Notes under the pieces: model-generated | Told to the model about the DNA's origin: nothing | The model's input: only the letters and a program-made list of their open reading frames with translations | Database searches by the model: none | Source of the DNA: Escherichia phage EK8 | Sequence record: PQ805430.1 | Length of the DNA stretch: 64,000 nucleotides | Strand: one strand, 5' to 3' | Shown: positions 19,606-26,022 of the stretch, one piece after another | Position numbering within the stretch: the stretch's first letter is position 1 | How the letters are laid out: the number at the start of each line of letters is the position of its first letter | Made by a program: the position numbers and the translations under genes

Positions 19606-19844
19606 TAACGAAACCTCATTTGTGTTACAGGTTCAATGTGGAATTGCCAGTGGTTATTACCCAGGTATTCCACGGAATAGTAATTACCCATATGGTGGGT
19701 TTTATCCTTACCCATATGGTTAATACTTACAGCCGGTGCATCAATGACATTAATACCCAGTAGTTTGAATATACGCATTTGATCCATCATGGCTTTAGTT
19801 AGCCAGATGCCTTTACCGGTCTTACTACATCTGAGCTTTTGCAT
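19605..19844 (-). CDS. small protein, paralog-family member (79 aa)
   Basis: motif LTKAMMDQMRIFKLLGINV. Confidence 0.45.
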   Translation of the reverse strand: MQKLRCSKTGKGIWLTKAMMDQMRIFKLLGINVIDAPAVSINHMGKDKTHHMGNYYSVEYLGNNHWQFHIEPVTQMRFR

Positions 19845-20486: not shown

Positions 20487-20505
20487 AAATATGGCCGGAG
20501 GCCAT

Positions 20506-21358: not shown

Positions 21359-21371
21359 ACTCGCTATGCGA
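21359..21371 (-). promoter_or_regulatory. hairpin element ctcgc-TAT-gcgag (candidate hairpin promoter)
   Basis: same cgcTATgcg core, in spacer upstream of small membrane-protein genes. Confidence 0.3.
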
Positions 21372-21387
21372 GCCAGGTTTTGATTAT

Positions 21388-22011
21388 TTATGCACGGATG
21401 ACAAGTTGCATGTCTGGTACAGTCAAAGCAGCGTTCGTGTCCTGCACGTAGACTGCGTTATGTGGGTCACCCTCTTCCAGTGTCTTCTGTAACTTTTGAC
21501 GACCACCATACGCATATCCCTGGGCCATATAGAACAGAGTACCATCAGGTAGGTCACCAAACCGCTCCACACGCGGTAAATCGCTTGCACCTACATCAAC
21601 TACAGGCAGATTGAGTTCAGTCGCTCTGTGAGCGATACAGGCGCTTTTAGAGGGATTGACCATCTCGCTACGCTCAATGGTCGCTTCGCTGCACTTCATG
21701 CAATTACAAGCATCACCACATACAGATAAGTCAGTAAGTGGTTTGATTGGACGACAGAACTCAATAACATCTGACCAGCCATCTACAGGCTCATTATCAC
21801 CGTGGAACAGTGTGATGTAGTGGAAGTCAGATTCACGCTGTCCTAACAGCCATGCGTATACAGATGCTTTATCTTCAAACTCTTTCTCTGTCGAGTGAGT
21901 TGCATCAAAGGTCAGATAGTCCAGTACGAATAACGTAGTCATAGTATGTCTCCAATAAGTTAAGTGTATTACTTCACTTAAAGTGCTATGCACTACTACC
22001 GGTCGTAACAC
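21388..22011 (-). CDS. hypothetical early protein with Cys cluster (207 aa)
   Basis: ORF; CGDACNCMKC motif. Confidence 0.45.
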   Translation of the reverse strand: MLRPVVVHSTLSEVIHLTYWRHTMTTLFVLDYLTFDATHSTEKEFEDKASVYAWLLGQRESDFHYITLFHGDNEPVDGWSDVIEFCRPIKPLTDLSVCGDACNCMKCSEATIERSEMVNPSKSACIAHRATELNLPVVDVGASDLPRVERFGDLPDGTLFYMAQGYAYGGRQKLQKTLEEGDPHNAVYVQDTNAALTVPDMQLVIRA

Positions 22012-22038
22012 TACGGTACTACGTACCTACGTGTTACT

Positions 22039-22090
22039 GACTAACCAATACTTCGTACTACGCTTCGCTACGTACTCGTATTGGTTAGTC
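22039..22090. repeat. perfect 13-bp inverted repeat gactaaccaatac / gtattggttagtc with 26-bp spacer
   Basis: read directly at 22039..22051 and 22078..22090. Confidence 0.8.
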
Positions 22091-22118
22091 TTACATCCCT
22101 AGTTATGTATACACATAC

Positions 22119-22259
22119 TAATAGTAAGGTTATTAGATATAAGGTAGATATGAGTTATAGATATAGGATAGGTATAGGTATAGAGATAGTAGTTGATAGG
22201 GTATAGGTAGAGATAAGTGATATAGATATAGATAAAGTAGTAGTAAGAGTAAGTAGTAA
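22119..22259. repeat. cytosine-free microsatellite-like tract (GTA/TAG/ATA units)
   Basis: 141 bp with no C on plus strand; only 4 C in 22119..22320; units taggta, gatatag, gtagtaa. Confidence 0.8.
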
Positions 22260-22520
22260 CAAAGTAGTAAGTAAGTAGAGATAGTAGTAACAGGTAGATA
22301 CTAAACATAAGTAAGTAGTGTTTTACTCAGTAAATACATCCTAATCTCTGTCAACCTTTTCCACTAATATAAATTTCCGATAAGGGTTATCGATAAAAGT
22401 GGTATAGGAAACTTACTGTATGATTTCTGACCGTCATACCTAGCGCGAGTAAAAGCTGTAAAGTTTTGGTAACTTATAGCGCGCCTTACTGTCTCAGTGG
22501 TGAGTTGTGTAATGTGTAAT

Positions 22521-22557
22521 TGTGTAGAAAAGAAATAGCCTACTCCGAAGAGTAGGC
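22521..22557 (-). terminator. rho-independent terminator after the first early gene
   Basis: 8-bp stem gcctactc/gagtaggc, loop cgaa, then ctatttcttttct on minus strand. Confidence 0.5.
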
Positions 22558-22564
22558 ATTGATG

Positions 22565-22819
22565 TTATGCAGTAGCAGTAGCTGATGCAGCCAGAGCTTT
22601 GACTTGGTTATCAAGCTCAGACTTAGCTGCGTTGTAAATCATCTGGTCTTTGATTTCGATGAGTTCACCGAAGCGTTTAGCTTTGTTCTCTGCTACCTTA
22701 GCCAGCTCATCACCAGCAGTAGCCAGACGATTGACTGCGGTTGCAGTTGTGGTGACAGTGGATACGGTTGCAACTACAGCACCAGTGAGAGCAGCGAACA
22801 GACCTTGTGGTTGGGACAT
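22565..22819 (-). CDS. hypothetical small protein (84 aa), apparently monocistronic
   Basis: ORF followed immediately by a terminator. Confidence 0.5.
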   Translation of the reverse strand: MSQPQGLFAALTGAVVATVSTVTTTATAVNRLATAGDELAKVAENKAKRFGELIEIKDQMIYNAAKSELDNQVKALAASATATA

Positions 22820-22991
22820 GAGTAATACTCCATAGCTATTGGATTAATGTAAGGGATGAAGGCATCTCACCTTCAAGACTCTGAAGCCTCCCACATCGCA
22901 GAGCTACGATTGTGGGTGCATACATGTGATTAATCTCAAGCAGACAATGTATGAAAACACTGAATGAGATGGATACGTATATCCATATGAT

Positions 22992-23002
22992 GGCCTATGG
23001 CC
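22992..23002 (-). promoter_or_regulatory. hairpin element ggcc-TAT-ggcc (weaker relative of the cgcTATgcg hairpins)
   Basis: 4-bp GC stem, TAT loop, about 175 bp upstream of gene start 22819. Confidence 0.2.
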
Positions 23003-23133
23003 TGAATTGTGTAAGGCGTAGTAAGAATCCTTTTTCAGCCAGCACTATGGAGGGGGTATCCACCCAAAGCTACAGCCAGAGTAGTAAGTTGAGCACTCGT
23101 ACCTAAATTAAAAAATTTTATAAAAGTTTTCCC

Positions 23134-23334
23134 TTAAACTTTTTTATCTCTATCCAGCGGAGCTATCCTGTTTACCCACCCTTCAAACTTATCCCTGAGT
23201 TTATCCATACCGTTCCAAATACTTTCAAAGATATAAGCAAGCACTAACGCTATACCACCCACCAACCATATCACTAACCAAACTGGCAGCAGAGAGATAC
23301 GGATAGCCTTGCTCTTGGTACTCATGCGATACAT
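23134..23334 (-). CDS. small membrane protein (66 aa)
   Basis: one strong TM helix; GAGG RBS; flanked by AT-rich sequence. Confidence 0.4.
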   Translation of the reverse strand: MYRMSTKSKAIRISLLPVWLVIWLVGGIALVLAYIFESIWNGMDKLRDKFEGWVNRIAPLDRDKKV

Positions 23335-23362
23335 AAAATTTTCCTCATAAAATTTTTAAAAA

Positions 23363-23391
23363 TTGCCCAACCTTTCGACCCTATTTATACT
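23363..23391 (+). promoter_or_regulatory. sigma70-like promoter candidate for the late operon
   Basis: -35 ttgccc (23363..23368), 17-bp spacer, -10 tatact (23386..23391), about 30 bp before the first late gene. Confidence 0.3.
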
Positions 23392-23422
23392 CTGGCTTAG
23401 AACCTATAGGGAGACTATATCA

Positions 23423-24109
23423 ATGGCATTGCTCGATTTAAATACACTCAAAGCTGCGTTGCCTGACAACATCCGTAAGACTATCACTGATGAAGTGTTG
23501 AATGGGATTAACGCTGCTGTGGCTGACCCCCAGTTTTACGAGTATTACCGTAACAACCTGTTGAGCTATGGCCATGTGCTGAAAGAAGGGAAGTTTACGG
23601 TTAAGCAGTACAGTGCAGCAGTCCGGTATGTGTCGTATAAGCTGATGGGCTTAACGAACCAGGAAGCGTGGATGAAGACCTTCCCGGACAAGTATGCGTA
23701 CTTCGCTCAGAAGGGCACCAGTGCAAAAGACATTTCAAGTTACGTCCATGCGTACCATAATACTAAACTGGTAAACCTGGTAATGGAGCAGTCGCTTGTT
23801 CCTGTGCATGTGGTAGGCCGTGACCTGTTCTGGAAAGCTCTCAACGTTCAGGCTGAGTTAATGGTCAGTGCTACCAGTGAAAAGGTACGCAGCGATGCTG
23901 CGAACAGCGTACTGAACACGTTGCGCCCGCCTGAGACTAAGAAGATGGAACTGGATATCAACCACAAGGACGATGGTACGCTGGAGGCGTTGCGTGCTGC
24001 TACGCAGGCTCTGGTAGACCAGCAATCGAATGCGATTGCTAGTGGGACAGTAACAGCAGGGCAGGTGGCCGCGTACCGTGTCATTGAAGCGGAGAAACTC
24101 GATGAGTAA
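23423..24109 (+). CDS. putative terminase small subunit (229 aa)
   Basis: first gene of late operon, directly upstream of large terminase; GGGAGA RBS 8 nt before ATG at 23423 (ORF-track start 23363 is a TTG). Confidence 0.35.
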   Translation: MALLDLNTLKAALPDNIRKTITDEVLNGINAAVADPQFYEYYRNNLLSYGHVLKEGKFTVKQYSAAVRYVSYKLMGLTNQEAWMKTFPDKYAYFAQKGTSAKDISSYVHAYHNTKLVNLVMEQSLVPVHVVGRDLFWKALNVQAELMVSATSEKVRSDAANSVLNTLRPPETKKMELDINHKDDGTLEALRAATQALVDQQSNAIASGTVTAGQVAAYRVIEAEKLDE

Positions 24110-24272
24110 GCCAGAACTGATAGTGACACTGTTTGGGATAGGTGCGTTTTTACTGGGTGCATTCATGGCCTGGCTTAAGCGTTGTCGGCATTCATATTAC
24201 TTTGTACGCACGGCCACTGATGGAAAAAAGGTGCTGTGCTGTGCGAAATGCGGGAAGGTTAAAGTCCAATGA
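24102..24272 (+). CDS. small membrane protein with C-terminal Cys pairs (56 aa)
   Basis: ATGA overlap with upstream stop; GGAGA RBS; hydrophobic helix. Confidence 0.35.
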   Translation: MSKPELIVTLFGIGAFLLGAFMAWLKRCRHSYYFVRTATDGKKVLCCAKCGKVKVQ

Positions 24273-24412
24273 TTACCTTATGGCCCGATTTCAAAGATCA
24301 ATCCCTGGCTTTCAACGAAGAAGAAGGTAAGTGGGAATTTAATAGCCGCCTCTACAGACGTAGGGGCCAGGCCGAAAAAGCAGCCTGGAAAGCATGGAAT
24401 AAGATGCGATGA
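24269..24412 (+). CDS. small protein (47 aa, below ORF-track cut-off)
   Basis: hand translation MITLWPDFKDQSLAFNEEEGKWEFNSRLYRRRGQAEKAAWKAWNKMR; overlaps both neighbours by ATGA. Confidence 0.3.
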   Translation: MITLWPDFKDQSLAFNEEEGKWEFNSRLYRRRGQAEKAAWKAWNKMR

Positions 24413-26022
24413 AAGACCTGGTAATGGGAGAACAGATCACCGCCCGCACCGTGGATAGCTGGTTGGCAGACGTTGACTATAACGACGATCCGACTTACCA
24501 GCCGTCCCGGTTCGCGCTGGAATTTGTGCTGTTCATCAAGATGGTGAACGGCGGGCAGGGGGAGGAAAACAAATCCCCCGTCCTGCACTACAAAATGTTG
24601 GATCAGGTTGTGTCCGGCGATACCCGTATCGCCAACATGATTCACCGTGGTGCCGCTAAGACGACCATCATGGGTGAATACCTGTTCCTGTATATCGGCG
24701 TTTATGGGGAGATCCCCGGCTTCGGTAAAATTGAACTGGCCTTGTACGTGTCGGACTCCATCGATAACGGCGTGAAGAACATGCGTAAGAACCTGGAGTT
24801 CCGCTATGAGAACAGCCCGTTCTTGCAGCAGTACATCCCGGTAGCGAAGTTCACTGATATCCGCTGGGAGTTCCAGAACGTCGATGGTAATAAGTTCGTG
24901 GTCAAGGGCTACGGTGCGAAGACCGGCGTTCGTGGTACGAAAGAAATGGGTAAACGTCCCCGTCTGGCGGTACTCGATGACCTGGTTTCGGATGAGGACG
25001 CACGTTCTCCGACTGTTATCGCGGCCATCGAAGATACCATCTACAAGGCAGTGGAATACGCCCTCCACCCTGAACGTAACATGATGATCTGGTCGGGTAC
25101 GCCGTTTAACGCATCCGATCCACTGTACAAAGCAGTCGAGTCCGGTGCCTGGTCGGTTAACGTCTACCCGGTGTGCGAGCGTTTCCCCTGCACGAAAGAA
25201 GATTTCCGGGGTAGCTGGCCTGACCGTTTCCCGTATGAGTACGTCAAACGCCAGTACGATAAGGCGTTACAGGCCGGAATGATTTCGATGTTTAACCAGG
25301 AGCTTATGCTTCGCATTATGTCCGACGAGGATCGCCTGATCGCAGATGGTGATATTCGTTGGTACAAAATCGACCTGGTTAAAAATAACCCGACCAACTT
25401 CAACTTCTACATCACCACTGACTTTGCGACCGGCGAGAAGCAGGCGAATGACTTCTCGGTTATCTCCGTGTGGGCTTATAACAACAACGGTGACTGGTTC
25501 TGGGTAGACGGGATCTGTAAACGACAGGATATGGCCAAGAACATTGATGACCTCTTCCGGCTCAATGCAAAATACAGGCCAATCTCCGTGGGTGTTGAAG
25601 TCTCCGGGCAACAGCAGGGCTTTATCTCAATCATCCAGGAGCGTATGGGCCGAACCAACAACTGGTTCACTCTGGCTTCAAACGAGAACTCAAACCAGCC
25701 TGGTATCAGGCCGAATACGAACAAGCTGCAACGCTTTAACGTAGTCGTGCCCTGGTTTAAGGCCGGTAAGATGTATTTCCCGATTGAGCACAAACATGAA
25801 GCCCCGCTCATGGAAATGATGGATGAACTTAAGCTGGCCTCAGTCGGAGGGTTTAAGTCCAAGCACGATGACGCCGTTGATACCATCTCCATGCTCGCCA
25901 GCATGAAACCGTTCAAGCCGAGCGAAGAAAGCACGCAGACAACCTGGGAGGATGGTAATATTTGGGATCAGAAAGTTGATGATGGTTGGGGCGATAGTGG
26001 CCTTAACTCCTACCTACCGTGA
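24409..26022 (+). CDS. terL: terminase large subunit
   Basis: 537 aa; Walker A-like HRGAAKTT, Walker B LAVLDD, C-terminal nuclease-like region with acidic residues. Confidence 0.8.
   Translation: MKDLVMGEQITARTVDSWLADVDYNDDPTYQPSRFALEFVLFIKMVNGGQGEENKSPVLHYKMLDQVVSGDTRIANMIHRGAAKTTIMGEYLFLYIGVYGEIPGFGKIELALYVSDSIDNGVKNMRKNLEFRYENSPFLQQYIPVAKFTDIRWEFQNVDGNKFVVKGYGAKTGVRGTKEMGKRPRLAVLDDLVSDEDARSPTVIAAIEDTIYKAVEYALHPERNMMIWSGTPFNASDPLYKAVESGAWSVNVYPVCERFPCTKEDFRGSWPDRFPYEYVKRQYDKALQAGMISMFNQELMLRIMSDEDRLIADGDIRWYKIDLVKNNPTNFNFYITTDFATGEKQANDFSVISVWAYNNNGDWFWVDGICKRQDMAKNIDDLFRLNAKYRPISVGVEVSGQQQGFISIIQERMGRTNNWFTLASNENSNQPGIRPNTNKLQRFNVVVPWFKAGKMYFPIEHKHEAPLMEMMDELKLASVGGFKSKHDDAVDTISMLASMKPFKPSEESTQTTWEDGNIWDQKVDDGWGDSGLNSYLP

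What the first reader, a model, noticed from the sequence alone, without database searches (positions are those of the whole stretch)
22039..23088. Perfect 13-bp inverted repeat and iterated GTAGTAAG octamers flanking the first early gene
A perfect inverted repeat gactaaccaatac / gtattggttagtc (22039..22051 and 22078..22090) encloses a 26-bp spacer that is itself rich in cgtac palindromes. The octamer gtagtaag recurs at 22240, 22264, 23018 and 23081; the last two lie outside the C-free tract, so composition alone does not explain them. A tandem tgtgtaa x3 sits at 22506..22526. Iterated short motifs around an AT-rich region are typical of protein-binding arrays such as origin iterons or terminase/packaging sites.
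Basis: seen in the sequence. Interest (0 to 1): 0.45.

Follow-up and report, generated by a model that had tools for sequence, protein, structure and literature searches.

The report
N4-like phage genome-end and early-promoter region
The flagged kilobase is the terminal-repeat and early-promoter leader of an N4-like phage: one "octamer" sits on the conserved site where the genome is cut for packaging, the other three are compositional or chance copies, and the perfect inverted repeat is a 58-bp hairpin insertion, seen in no compared relative, next to the first early promoter.

Summary
All the listed features are in the sequence at the stated coordinates. They are not one array.

The window is a Cbunavirus-like N4-type phage (Schitoviridae), read in reverse of the standard N4 map. 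The assembly is collapsed across the genome ends.

- **Octamer at 23081-88:** it straddles the inferred left physical end (AACT|TACTAC, first base 23086). It lies in a 20-nt block that is invariant in 8 GenBank relatives. A family-wide ruler supports this placement: a C-run starts 29-34 nt from the left ends of N4, G7C, LUZ7, LIT1, Pollock and phiAxp-3.
- **Octamers at 22240 and 22264:** they lie in an expansion, largest in this phage, of a conserved G-free spacer (early strand). That spacer starts at the inferred right edge of the terminal repeat (~22319). Composition nearly explains them (P=0.055).
- **Octamer at 23018:** not conserved.
- **TGTGTAA x3:** a conserved 3x ACACA element after the terminator of the repeat-borne gene, also seen in MIF8, LUZ7, LIT1 and Pollock.
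- **13-bp inverted repeat:** a 58-nt insertion that the nearest relative lacks and that no database searched contains. It sits 1 nt upstream of two conserved, covarying hairpins that include early promoter P1.

Origin iterons are not supported. A packaging-site reading is partly right. Ordinary biology, with some unreported comparative detail.

The parts
23073..23092 (-). Invariant left-terminus block CAACTTACTACTCTGGCTGT. The inferred physical left end (start of the terminal repeat) falls between 23087 and 23086 (AACT|TACTAC).
   Evidence: Identical in all 8 GenBank relatives found by BLAST, including SABI, which is about 71% identical overall. The CB1 and CB4 records start exactly here. The bases 5' of the cut are homologous to the run-off-sequenced ends of LUZ7 and LIT1 (GCAGTACT|T).
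23052..23056 (-). C-run (GGATACCCCCTCC) starting 31 nt from the inferred left end. It serves as a family-wide ruler for the left terminus.
   Evidence: The C-run starts at nt 29 (LUZ7), 30 (LIT1), 32 (N4, G7C), 33 (Pollock) and 34 (phiAxp-3) from the annotated or experimentally determined left ends. It starts at 31 in WIN, CB1 and SABI and at 30 in MIF8 when the CB1-type end is used.
22319..23086 (-). Inferred direct terminal repeat (about 768 bp), present once because the assembly is collapsed.
   Evidence: Homology to the annotated 647/648-bp repeats of CB1 and CB4. The right edge coincides with the switch from a G-rich/C-poor block to a G-free tract that is also seen at the LUZ7 and LIT1 repeat ends. 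Not verifiable without reads.
22992..23002 (-). Hairpin promoter P0, GGCC-ATA-GGCC, inside the repeat. Predicted start is the G at 22984.
   Evidence: Conserved in all relatives. Listed as a putative hairpin promoter for CB1 (76-105) in Table S4 of PMC6027278. Belongs to the same C-ATA-G class as P1-P3.
23018..23025 (+). Octamer copy with no support for function.
   Evidence: Relatives read CTTACTCT, CTTACTAT or CTTTCTAT here, and the SABI-type genomes have a 3-nt deletion.
22565..22819 (-). 84-aa early gene carried in the terminal repeat (membrane-protein family).
   Evidence: phrog_16196, E = 2e-45. Orthologue of CB1_01. No detectable similarity to N4 gp1.
22538..22557 (-). Intrinsic terminator of the repeat-borne gene.
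   Evidence: 8-bp stem followed by a T-run. Same sequence as CB1 terminator Torf1_1.
22505..22530 (-). Three ACACA repeats (CTACACAATTACACATTACACAAC).
   Evidence: Present directly after the terminator in CB1, SABI, MIF8, LUZ7 and LIT1, and at 498, 505 and 533 in Pollock. Absent in N4 and G7C.
22100..22318 (-). G-free spacer on the early strand (C-free on +; longest run 22119-22259), with loose 6/11-nt periodicity. It lies between the repeat's right edge and the promoter hairpins.
   Evidence: Only 7 C in 22100-22320. The core CCTATACCCTATC...TATACCTATACCTAYCCTATA is conserved in all relatives. Analogous G-poor stretches follow the repeats of LUZ7, LIT1 and Presley.
22239..22290 (-). Four copies of TTACTACT (22239-46, 22252-59, 22263-70, 22283-90), which reiterate the left-terminus heptamer. 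They include the octamers at 22240 and 22264.
   Evidence: 6 copies in the window against 1.6 expected, 0 of 100 shuffles. Five are on the - strand between 22239 and 23087. The region is much longer here than in any relative: the nearest relative L027 keeps one TTACTACT, CB1 only loose variants, and Horatius, Arno152 and L022 none.
22038..22095 (-). 58-nt insertion unique to this phage, carrying the perfect 13-bp inverted repeat (arms 22039-22051 and 22078-22090). The nested inner pairs are GTAC / GTA bulges / GC-GAA-GC.
   Evidence: The nearest relative L027 reads TAGGGAGTAACACG without it. All other relatives lack it, and the site carries 0-22-nt variable inserts. No match in GenBank phages, IMG/VR or GTDB genomes. 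Fold.
22005..22037 (-). Hairpin A: GTAACAC-GTA-GGTAC-GTA-GTACC-GTA-GTGTTAC. A conserved composite hairpin with a C-GNA-G loop on the early coding strand.
   Evidence: 100% of cells paired, 6 pairs with compensatory double changes, 0 of 500 shuffles reach the score. Also present in MIF8. No second stem-of-4-or-more C-GNA-G hairpin outside an ORF in the window. Listed as putative promoter Porf1_2 for CB1.
21982..21994 (-). Hairpin B = early promoter P1 (AGTGC-ATA-GCACT). Predicted start is the G at 21975-21977.
   Evidence: Belongs to the C-ATA-G class: 8 on the early strand against 1 on the other. 97% of cells paired with covariation, and an invariant G with a nearly invariant T (TG) 12-13 nt downstream of the loop centre. 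Orthologous hairpins in L024, L028 and SABI carry different stems.
21388..21942 (-). First early gene downstream of the repeat (184 aa), served by P1.
   Evidence: ORF list. phrog_23646.
21360..21372 (-). Early promoter P2 (CTCGC-ATA-GCGAG, followed by TCGGGTGATT).
   Evidence: Intergenic. Same downstream sequence as CB1 CGTGC-ATA-GCACG TCGGGTGATT, with compensatory stem changes.
23363..26022 (+). gp69-like protein (23363-24109; called small terminase in some records) and large terminase (24409-26022). These are the enzymes presumed to act on the terminus.
   Evidence: Annotation of orthologues in CB1, Kc283 and Possum. phrog_2109.

Best explanation
The interval is the 'telomere' of an N4-like podophage. 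It is a single collapsed copy of the direct terminal repeat (about 23086..22319 on the - strand) plus the leader of the first early operon.

**Packaging (inferred from N4/T7 knowledge, not shown).** The terminase (TerL 24409-26022, with the gp69-like protein) cuts concatemers at the invariant site AACT|TACTACTCTGGCTGT. The repeat is then duplicated so that each virion DNA carries it at both ends.

**Infection (inferred from N4 knowledge).** This end enters the cell first. Gyrase-driven supercoiling extrudes small hairpins (stem-ATA-stem, closing C:G). The virion RNA polymerase uses these as promoters: P0 in the repeat, then P1, P2 and P3.

1. The octamer at 23081-88 is the left-end cleavage site.
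2. The octamers at 22240 and 22264 are two of four TTACTACT words in a locally expanded part of a conserved G-free spacer. That spacer begins at the repeat's right edge. The words mostly reflect composition, though they may add alternative right-end cut sites.
3. The octamer at 23018 is a chance substitution.
4. TGTGTAA x3 is a cross-genus conserved ACACA triplet after the terminator of the repeat-borne gene. It is a candidate protein-binding site.
5. The perfect 13-bp inverted repeat is a recent 58-nt insertion. It adds a third extrudable hairpin immediately upstream of conserved hairpin A and promoter hairpin B. It is dispensable for the phage type. At most it modulates supercoil-dependent extrusion at P1.
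For: **Identity and orientation.** The region is 82-87% identical to Cbunavirus genomes, with annotated terminal repeats and hairpin promoters under the match.

**Left end.**
- The CB1 and CB4 records start at TACTACTCTGG.
- The 20-nt block is invariant in 8 independently found relatives.
- The C-run lies 29-34 nt from the left ends of N4, G7C, LUZ7, LIT1, Pollock and phiAxp-3, and 30-31 nt here. Ends were determined by run-off sequencing for LUZ7/LIT1 and for phiAxp-3.

**Right edge and spacer.** Alignments are. The composition switch is shared with LUZ7 and LIT1.

**Promoter class.**
- C-ATA-G hairpins number 8 on the early strand against 1 on the other. Four are intergenic and upstream of early genes.
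- Stems covary and TG lies 12-13 nt downstream.
- This agrees with the CB1 authors' Table S4. It also agrees with LUZ7, where start sites are G, 13-14 nt from the hairpin centre, and tandem promoters lie 33 nt apart.

**IR is an insertion.** L027 and all other relatives lack it, and it is absent from the databases searched.

**Hairpin A is real.** Covariation.
Against: - No reads or virion DNA are available, so neither end is demonstrated for this phage.
- The published repeat frames disagree. CB3 starts 54 nt and Possum/Horatius 44 nt upstream of the CB1/CB4 frame, and all are read-depth estimates. The choice between frames rests on my cross-genus comparison.
- The ATA-loop hairpins do not meet N4's own base-specific rules (-10G, -8G). 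No transcription start has been mapped in any Cbunavirus.
- The functions of hairpin A, the G-free spacer and the ACACA triplet are unknown.
- The resemblance of the IR to hairpin A is not statistically significant (P = 0.23).
Confidence: 0.75

Rival explanations
1. Replication origin. Hairpin A (and the extra IR) would act as an outward-facing start or entry site next to an AT-rich, strand-asymmetric unwinding tract. A C-free, purine-rich transcript or R-loop made across the tract would prime DNA synthesis toward the left end. This resembles the tandem promoters plus AT-rich region of the phage T7 primary origin.
For: - Hairpin A is single-copy, conserved with covariation, and also present in MIF8, where it lies 172 nt away from the promoter hairpin. 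So it is not simply part of P1.
- Its stable C-G(T/A)A-G loop lies on the early coding strand in all 11 variants, and likewise in the IR (GC-GAA-GC). In N4 that loop type marks the template strand.
- The adjacent tract is about 72% A+T, C-free on one strand, and loosely periodic.
- From my own knowledge, not checked here: vRNAP is reported to be needed for N4 DNA replication.
Against: - No origin has been mapped in any Schitovirus that I could find.
- The tract repeats are imperfect (65% matches).
- The octamer iterations are not conserved.
- LUZ7 and LIT1 have the tract but no hairpin A.
- The reverse-direction start position lacks the conserved TG/G seen at real promoters, and the N4 +1C rule is not met.
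Confidence: 0.12
2. Terminal-repeat duplication or right-end formation device. The palindromes next to the concatemer junction would form a fold-back that primes copying of the repeat, as proposed for T7 concatemer processing. The switch from a G-rich block to a G-free tract, together with the TTACTACT words, would define where the right end is made. Several right ends would result, as in N4.
For: - A related word lies at both inferred edges: AACT|TACTAC on the left, AACA|CTACT(A/T)AC on the right.
- A composition switch occurs exactly at the repeat's right end in LUZ7, LIT1 and Pollock.
- N4 right ends are heterogeneous.
- The T7 hairpin intermediate is recalled from memory, not checked.
Against: - The right-edge word is missing in Horatius, Arno152 and L022.
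- The LIT1 edges share no word.
- Hairpin A lies about 280 nt beyond the inferred right edge.
- The IR is absent in relatives.
Confidence: 0.1
3. The IR is a functional extra N4-type promoter. Its core (template 5'-GC-GAA-GC-3' on the - strand) matches the N4 P1 loop and its -8G, -10G and -11A contacts. It would drive transcription rightward, away from the early genes.
For: The core is identical to the N4 P1 hairpin top (GC-GAA-GC). The N4 rules are summarised and the N4 P1 sequence is. A G lies 13 nt downstream at 22078.
Against: - The stem is only 2 bp before three mismatches.
- +1 by N4 geometry is not C on the template.
- This phage's own promoters use ATA loops.
- No gene lies downstream in that direction.
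- The element is absent in all relatives.
Confidence: 0.06
4. The IR is a miniature mobile element (terminal inverted repeats plus target duplication) or an operator for a dimeric regulator.
For: It has perfect 13-bp terminal arms and GTAA on both flanks of the insertion. It is a clean presence/absence difference against L027.
Against: - It is single-copy in the window.
- There is no other copy in 50,697 phage records, IMG/VR or 185,579 GTDB genomes.
- The flank duplication is imperfect.
- A 39-bp centre-to-centre arm spacing is atypical for an operator.
Confidence: 0.05

Closest known systems
Direct terminal repeats and genome ends of N4-like phages (N4, LUZ7/LIT1, phiAxp-3; annotated repeats of Pectobacterium phages CB1/CB4)
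   Same: - Position between the gp69/terminase module and the early genes.
- A small early gene, a hairpin promoter and a terminator inside the repeat.
- The sequence at the left end is homologous to CB1/CB4.
- The C-run lies about 30 nt from the end, as in N4, G7C, LUZ7, LIT1, Pollock and phiAxp-3.
   Different: - The repeat is inferred to be about 768 bp, against 647 in CB1 and 390-440 in N4. The extra length comes from a roughly 105-nt insertion upstream of the ORF.
- The post-repeat spacer is expanded by reiterated TTACTACT words.
- N4 and G7C lack the ACACA triplet and the G-free spacer.
N4 virion-RNA-polymerase hairpin promoters (P1-P3) and the LUZ7 early hairpin promoters mapped by ONT-cappable-seq
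   Same: - 4-6-bp stems and a 3-nt loop closed by C:G.
- A central purine on the template strand.
- A G start 11-13 nt downstream.
- Clustering at the first-injected end.
- Tandem hairpins 33 nt apart, as in LUZ7.
   Different: - The loop is TAT on the template, not GRA.
- N4's -10G and -8G contacts are not conserved.
- Hairpin A and the IR carry the GNA loop on the non-template strand.
- The IR has a 13-bp outer stem and a 26-nt interior, far outside the promoter format.
Short-repeat arrays flanking the T7 terminal repeat (SRL/SRR) and the hairpin intermediate of T7 concatemer processing (from memory, not checked here)
   Same: A strand-biased, loosely iterated non-coding stretch lies between the terminal repeat and the first promoters. 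A palindrome lies near the concatemer junction.
   Different: The sequences and the terminase are unrelated. The function of the T7 arrays is itself unsettled. No experimental link exists for Schitoviridae.
Lambda cosB: three small-terminase binding repeats beside the cut site (from memory)
   Same: Three spaced copies of a short word (ACACA) lie inside the DNA that would be packaged first, and they are conserved across genera.
   Different: The distance to either inferred cut is 190-580 bp. No binding data exist. The word is only 5-7 nt long.
Extra-stable d(GCGAAGC)-type GNA mini-hairpins (from memory)
   Same: The IR centre is exactly GCGAAGC on the - strand. Hairpin A loops are C-GTA-G or C-GAA-G.
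   Different: GCGAAGC occurs 18 times in the window on both strands. The heptamer alone is therefore not diagnostic.

Membership tests
Schitoviridae direct terminal repeat / physical genome end | Lies between the late gp69/terminase module and the rightward early genes, and is homologous to annotated repeats of relatives. | tested here: met
Schitoviridae direct terminal repeat / physical genome end | Left-end signature: conserved cut context (…ACT|T…) and a C-run about 30 nt inside the end. | tested here: met
   C-run at 31 nt in the window, against 29-34 nt in N4, G7C, LUZ7, LIT1, Pollock and phiAxp-3.
Schitoviridae direct terminal repeat / physical genome end | The same sequence is physically present at both ends of virion DNA (double read depth, read-start pile-ups or run-off stops). 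| not testable with these tools
   Only one assembled copy and no reads. Published frames for CB3 and Possum differ by 44-54 nt from CB1/CB4.
N4-type vRNAP hairpin promoter | Stem of 4-7 bp, 3-nt loop, loop closed by C:G, on the strand that templates early genes, upstream of early ORFs. | tested here: met
   Met for the hairpins centred at 22997, 21988, 21366 and 16789. Not met by the 13-bp IR, which has a 26-nt interior and a 2-bp apical stem.
N4-type vRNAP hairpin promoter | N4 base-specific contacts on the template: -11 purine, -10G, -8G, +1C. | tested here: not met
   The ATA-loop class gives template TAT: -11A is satisfied, but -10 is T. -8G is present in P1, P2 and P3 but not in P0 or in CB1's P3. 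The +1C equivalent is conserved if the start is the invariant G at +13. These hairpins work like N4 promoters but with a different specificity.
N4-type vRNAP hairpin promoter | Mapped transcription start and dependence on vRNAP, gyrase and SSB. | not testable with these tools
   No transcript data exist for any Cbunavirus. The CB1 promoters are predictions.
Replication-origin iterons | Several copies of one 17-22-bp (or shorter) word with regular spacing, conserved in relatives, next to an unwinding element and an initiator gene. | tested here: not met
   The octamer copies are not conserved. The tract periodicity is weak (65% matches). No initiator is identified. The AT-rich asymmetric tract itself is conserved, so an origin cannot be excluded.
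Terminase recognition/cleavage site (cos/pac-like) | A conserved sequence at the position where the mature end is generated. | tested here: met
   Met for 23073-23092 only.
Terminase recognition/cleavage site (cos/pac-like) | Repeated small-terminase binding words near the cut. | tested here: inconclusive
   The ACACA x3 element is conserved across five lineages, but no binding data exist and the word is short.
Miniature inverted-repeat mobile element | Multiple copies, terminal inverted repeats and a target-site duplication. | tested here: not met
   Single copy. No copies in three collections. The GTAA flank repeat is imperfect.
Intrinsic terminator | GC-rich stem followed by a T-run. | tested here: not met
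   The IR has no T-run on either strand. The real terminator is 22538-22557.

The most novel reading that the evidence does not exclude
A large part of the Schitoviridae (Cbunavirus, Efbeekayvirus, Litunavirus, Luzseptimavirus, Pollockvirus) may share an undescribed cis-acting 'telomere grammar'. Its order is: left cut, a C-run at about 30 nt, a hairpin promoter, a small gene, a terminator, 3x ACACA, a G-rich block, the right edge of the repeat, then a G-free tract.

In the Cbunavirus/Efbeekayvirus branch, the single-copy GNA-loop hairpin A would be a replication-priming or repeat-duplication device rather than a promoter. On this reading, the window's reiterated TTACTACT words and its extra hairpin are lineage-specific amplifications of the cut-site and hairpin modules. 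They would give multiple right ends, like N4.
Probability: 0.2. Interest if true: 0.6.

Novelty: new member of a known kind. Interest (0 to 1): 0.3.

Why it matters
**Annotation.** This fixes where the genome of this phage, and by extension other Cbunavirus records, should be opened. It flags that the deposited repeat frames of CB3 and Possum/Horatius are probably shifted by 44-54 nt. It also separates the likely true early promoters (ATA-loop hairpins) from a conserved hairpin that the CB1 paper lists as a putative promoter.

**Biology.** The C-run ruler, the ACACA triplet and the composition switch at the repeat's right edge recur across genera. They give concrete, testable candidates for the still-unknown terminase recognition and end-duplication signals of N4-like phages.

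**The flagged motifs themselves.** The inverted repeat and the octamer 'array' are, respectively, a dispensable insertion and mostly composition.

Tried and rejected
- **Rfam scan of 21500-23600 at E<=1:** nothing found.
- **Sigma-70 promoter scan:** no enrichment (4 found against 5.1 expected). Only the known terminator stood out.
- **IR or its spacer in other collections:** no hits in GenBank phages (blastn, E<=10), IMG/VR (two patterns) or GTDB genomes.
- **The single metagenome scan, spent on the hairpin A core:** it returned one extra relative, L028.
- **IR as a diverged duplicate of hairpin A:** the two share CGTAG/GTAC words and GTA bulges. The local alignment score is not above dinucleotide shuffles (P = 0.23), and MAFFT did not align them sensibly. 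I dropped this as a claim.
- **84-aa repeat-borne ORF as a homologue of N4 gp1:** no BLASTP similarity.
- **A shared word at both repeat edges as a family-wide rule:** suggestive in Cbunavirus and LUZ7, absent in LIT1 and three Cbunavirus lineages. I kept it only as a rival idea.
- **Other C-GNA-G hairpins as a hairpin A class:** all lie inside ORFs.
- **69-aa ORF at 22099-22308 (- strand) in the G-free tract:** a compositional artefact (few stop codons without G). Its start codon region is missing in L027.
- **Literature search for a mapped N4 origin or a description of the terminus motifs:** nothing found.
Full report
**1. Observation.**
- The 13-bp arms (22039-22051 and 22078-22090) are perfectly complementary around a 26-nt spacer that holds CGTAC/GTAC palindromes.
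- It is the only perfect inverted repeat of 13 bp or more with a spacer of 60 nt or less in the window. Shuffles give a mean of 0.07, and 3 of 60 contain one.
- GTAGTAAG occurs at 22240, 22264, 23018 and 23081, plus once on the other strand at 19821. That is 5 against 1.5 expected.
- Locally, the two copies inside the C-free tract are nearly explained by composition (0.41 expected, P = 0.055). The two outside are not (0.03 expected, P = 0.0004).
- The C-free run 22119-22259 (141 nt) is three times longer than any other run lacking a single base in the window.
- 'tgtgtaa x3' is two exact copies plus one offset, imperfect copy.

**2. What the region is.**
The window matches Pectobacterium, Kosakonia and Enterobacter N4-like phages (Schitoviridae, Cbunavirus) at 72-87% identity. 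'Redundant terminal repeat' and 'promoter ... stem loop ... N4 early' features are annotated under the match.

The window is in the reverse of the standard N4 orientation.
- The gp69-like gene (23363-24109) and the large terminase (24409-26022) run on the + strand.
- The early genes run on the - strand below 22000.

The finding therefore spans the junction between the right and left genome ends, with the terminal repeat present once.

I aligned the junction with 8 GenBank relatives, 7 IMG/VR loci and one metagenome contig. The IMG/VR locus L027 is the nearest relative.

**3. The octamer at 23081-88 is the left-end cut site.**
On the early strand the block CAACTTACTACTCTGGCTGT (23092..23073) is invariant in all 8 independently retrieved relatives. 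This includes SABI, which is only about 71% identical overall. The CB1 and CB4 records begin at T|TACTACTCTGG, which is window 23086.

Those ends are read-depth estimates, and the deposited frames disagree. CB3 starts 54 nt and Horatius/Possum 44 nt further upstream.

A cross-genus comparison resolves this. A C-run begins at a near-constant distance from left ends that were fixed by run-off sequencing or by the classical N4 work:
- nt 29 in LUZ7
- nt 30 in LIT1
- nt 32 in N4 and in G7C
- nt 34 in phiAxp-3
- nt 33 in Pollock

With the CB1/CB4 frame the C-run begins at nt 31 in the window, CB1 and SABI, and at nt 30 in MIF8. The bases 5' of the cut are also homologous:
- LUZ7: GCAGTACTT|
- LIT1: GCAGTACT|T
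- MIF8: GCAGTACT|T
- SABI: GCACTACT|T
- CB1 and the window: CTCAACT|T

Cleavage by the terminase at this site is inferred, not shown.

**4. Inside the repeat (23086..~22319).**
Reading along the early strand, the order is:
1. The C-run (23056..23052).
2. A GGCC-ATA-GGCC hairpin (23002..22992). It is conserved in all relatives and is listed as a putative promoter for CB1.
3. A window-specific insertion of about 105 nt.
4. An 84-aa gene of the phrog_16196 membrane-protein family.
5. A strong intrinsic terminator (22557..22538).
6. Three ACACA repeats.

The ACACA triplet follows the terminator in CB1, SABI, MIF8, LUZ7, LIT1 and Pollock, but not in N4 or G7C. It is a genuine conserved element of unknown role. 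A binding site for the small terminase or another end-binding protein is a reasonable guess.

**5. Right edge, G-free spacer and the other octamers.**
The CB1/CB4 right edge (...CATAACA|CTACTACC) aligns to window ...AAAACA|CTACTTAC at 22319|22318. That gives a repeat of about 768 bp.

From there to about 22100 the early strand is almost free of G. The core of the tract is conserved in sequence in all relatives.

LUZ7 and LIT1 show the same layout at their experimentally defined repeat ends: a G-rich/C-poor block of about 40 nt, then 100-120 nt with 1-4 G per 40 nt, up to the next hairpin promoter. Pollock has the G-rich block and Presley the G-poor stretch. N4, G7C and phiAxp-3 lack both.

The octamers at 22240 and 22264 lie in a part of the tract that is much longer in this phage than in any relative; L027 shares only some of it. 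That part contains four TTACTACT words, the same heptamer-plus that lies at the left cut (6 in the window against 1.6 expected, 0 of 100 shuffles). Relatives carry zero or one such word near the right edge. The iteration is therefore not conserved.

The octamer at 23018 is CTTACTCT, CTTACTAT or CTTTCTAT in most relatives, and the SABI-type genomes have a 3-nt deletion there.

**6. The inverted repeat and the promoter hairpins.**
Comparison with L027 shows TAGGG[58 nt]AGTAACACG in the window against TAGGGAGTAACACG in L027. The IR is an insertion (22038-22095) at a spot where other relatives carry 0-22-nt variable inserts. It has no match in GenBank phages, IMG/VR or GTDB genomes, and no second copy in the window.

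Two conserved hairpins lie immediately downstream.

*Hairpin A (22037..22005).* This is a composite stem: 7 bp, a GTA/GTA internal loop, 5 bp, then a GTA loop.
- It has three different outer-stem versions, and in L021 an inverted inner stem with a GAA loop.
- All cells pair, six pairs show double changes, and 0 of 500 shuffles reach the covariation score.
- MIF8 has a simpler version 172 nt upstream of its promoter hairpin.
- LUZ7 and LIT1 have none.
- Its C-G(T/A)A-G loop is on the early coding strand. That is opposite to the N4 rule, where this loop type marks the template strand.
- No other stem-of-4-or-more C-GNA-G hairpin in the window lies outside an ORF.

*Hairpin B (21994..21982, AGTGC-ATA-GCACT).* It belongs to a class of C-ATA-G hairpins.
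- The class is found 8 times on the early strand against once on the other.
- Four are intergenic and upstream of early ORFs, centred at 22997, 21988, 21366 and 16789.
- Stems covary between orthologues, and TG lies 12-13 nt downstream of the loop centre (the G is invariant, the T nearly so).
- This fits LUZ7, where mapped early starts are G, 13-14 nt from the hairpin centre, and two strong promoters sit 33 nt apart.
- Hairpins A and B here are also 33 nt apart.

The CB1 authors listed the GGCC-ATA-GGCC hairpin, hairpin A and a CTCGC-ATA-GCGAG hairpin as putative promoters. My comparison suggests that the ATA-loop class are the promoters and that hairpin A is something else.

As single strands, the IR, hairpin A and hairpin B fold as three consecutive hairpins of -13.6, -10.0 and -3.3 kcal/mol.

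**7. How it most likely works.**
*Shown here:*
- homology, conservation and covariation
- the insertion status of the IR
- the composition statistics

*Inferred from N4 and LUZ7 knowledge:*
- The left end enters the cell first.
- Gyrase-induced supercoiling extrudes the promoter hairpins.
- The virion RNA polymerase starts at a G about 13 nt downstream of the loop centre.
- Terminase cuts at the invariant left block.
- The repeat is regenerated during packaging.

The IR adds a very stable extra cruciform arm 1 nt from hairpin A. It could compete for superhelical energy or have no effect. Its absence from all relatives shows that it is not needed for this phage type.

**8. Comparison and novelty.**
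The region belongs to a known kind: the N4-like terminal repeat plus hairpin-promoter leader, already annotated in CB1.

The following appear not to be described in the papers I could read:
- the C-run ruler
- the cross-genus ACACA triplet
- the skew switch at the repeat's right end
- the covariation-supported distinction between hairpin A and the ATA-loop promoters
- the inconsistency of the deposited Cbunavirus repeat frames

These are modest comparative observations and need wet-lab confirmation. As a finding, the 'octamer array plus inverted repeat' is largely ordinary. One part is a real cut site, one is a conserved triplet, and the rest is composition, chance and a dispensable insertion.

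Noticed in passing
window 23052-23056 (- strand); L014, L016, L018, L029, L033, L034 starts: A run of 5-11 C begins 29-34 nt from the left physical end in N4, G7C, LUZ7, LIT1, Pollock and phiAxp-3. It begins at 30-31 nt in the Cbunavirus-like genomes and at about 45 nt in Presley. It works as a family-wide ruler for the left terminus.
   Followed up: partly
L031 (CB3) 1-647; L005 (Horatius) 1-636 versus L004 (CB1) and L032 (CB4): The deposited terminal-repeat frames of CB3 and Horatius/Possum are shifted 54 and 44 nt upstream relative to CB1/CB4, although the sequence is homologous. The C-run ruler favours the CB1/CB4 frame.
   Followed up: yes
window 22319 boundary; L016 ~620-800; L018 ~615-780; L033 ~570-610: A G-rich/C-poor block of about 40 nt lies immediately before the right edge of the repeat. 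A G-poor stretch of 100-200 nt follows it, up to the next hairpin promoter. Both parts are seen in LUZ7, LIT1 and the Cbunavirus-like genomes; Pollock shows the G-rich block and Presley the G-poor stretch. N4, G7C and phiAxp-3 show neither.
   Followed up: partly
window hairpin centres 22997, 21988, 21366, 16789 (also 17154, 17704), - strand: Stem-ATA-stem hairpins closed by C:G number 8 on the early strand against 1 on the other. P2 and P3 differ from their CB1 orthologues by compensatory stem changes, while the flanks (TCGGGTGATT, CATCTGTTAGA) are kept.
   Followed up: yes
window 22005-22037; L021, L024, L028, L012 2129-2145: Hairpin A keeps a C-G(T/A)A-G triloop on the non-template strand in every lineage. 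In L021 the inner stem is flipped (GTACC-GAA-GGTAC), and in MIF8 only the outer stem remains. The CB1 paper lists it as a putative promoter.
   Followed up: partly
window ~22850-22985 (- strand): A window-specific insertion of about 105 nt lies inside the repeat, between the P0 hairpin and the 84-aa ORF. It includes a TGGATA-TACG-TATCCA hairpin (22964-22991). Relatives go straight from GGCCATAGGCCATG... to the ribosome-binding site.
   Followed up: no
L009 (SABI), L021, L024, L028 between hairpins A and B: The SABI-type lineages carry an extra 7-bp hairpin (GTAGATA-GTTA-TATCTAC) between hairpin A and the promoter hairpin. The space around these hairpins is therefore a hotspot for small palindromic insertions.
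   Followed up: no
window 22099-22308 (- strand): This 69-aa ATG ORF lies entirely in the G-free tract and is an artefact of composition (TAG and TGA stops are impossible without G). Its start region is absent in L027.
   Followed up: partly
window 23108-23146 (+ strand coordinates): An AT-rich block of overlapping palindromes (AAAACTTTTATAAAATTTTTTAA) lies 20-60 nt outside the left cut and is conserved in relatives. It follows the stop of the 66-aa ORF 23134-23334 (- strand). It could be part of the terminase recognition region or a terminator.
   Followed up: no
window 13898, 11621, 12969, 20498 (+ strand coordinates): Long-stem hairpins with TTC/TCC loops on the early strand lie in the early/middle region (for example AGCCACCCC-TTC-GGGGTGGCT followed by ATTTCATTT). 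They look like intrinsic terminators of the kind listed for CB1. The one at 20498 is preceded, not followed, by a T-run.
   Followed up: no
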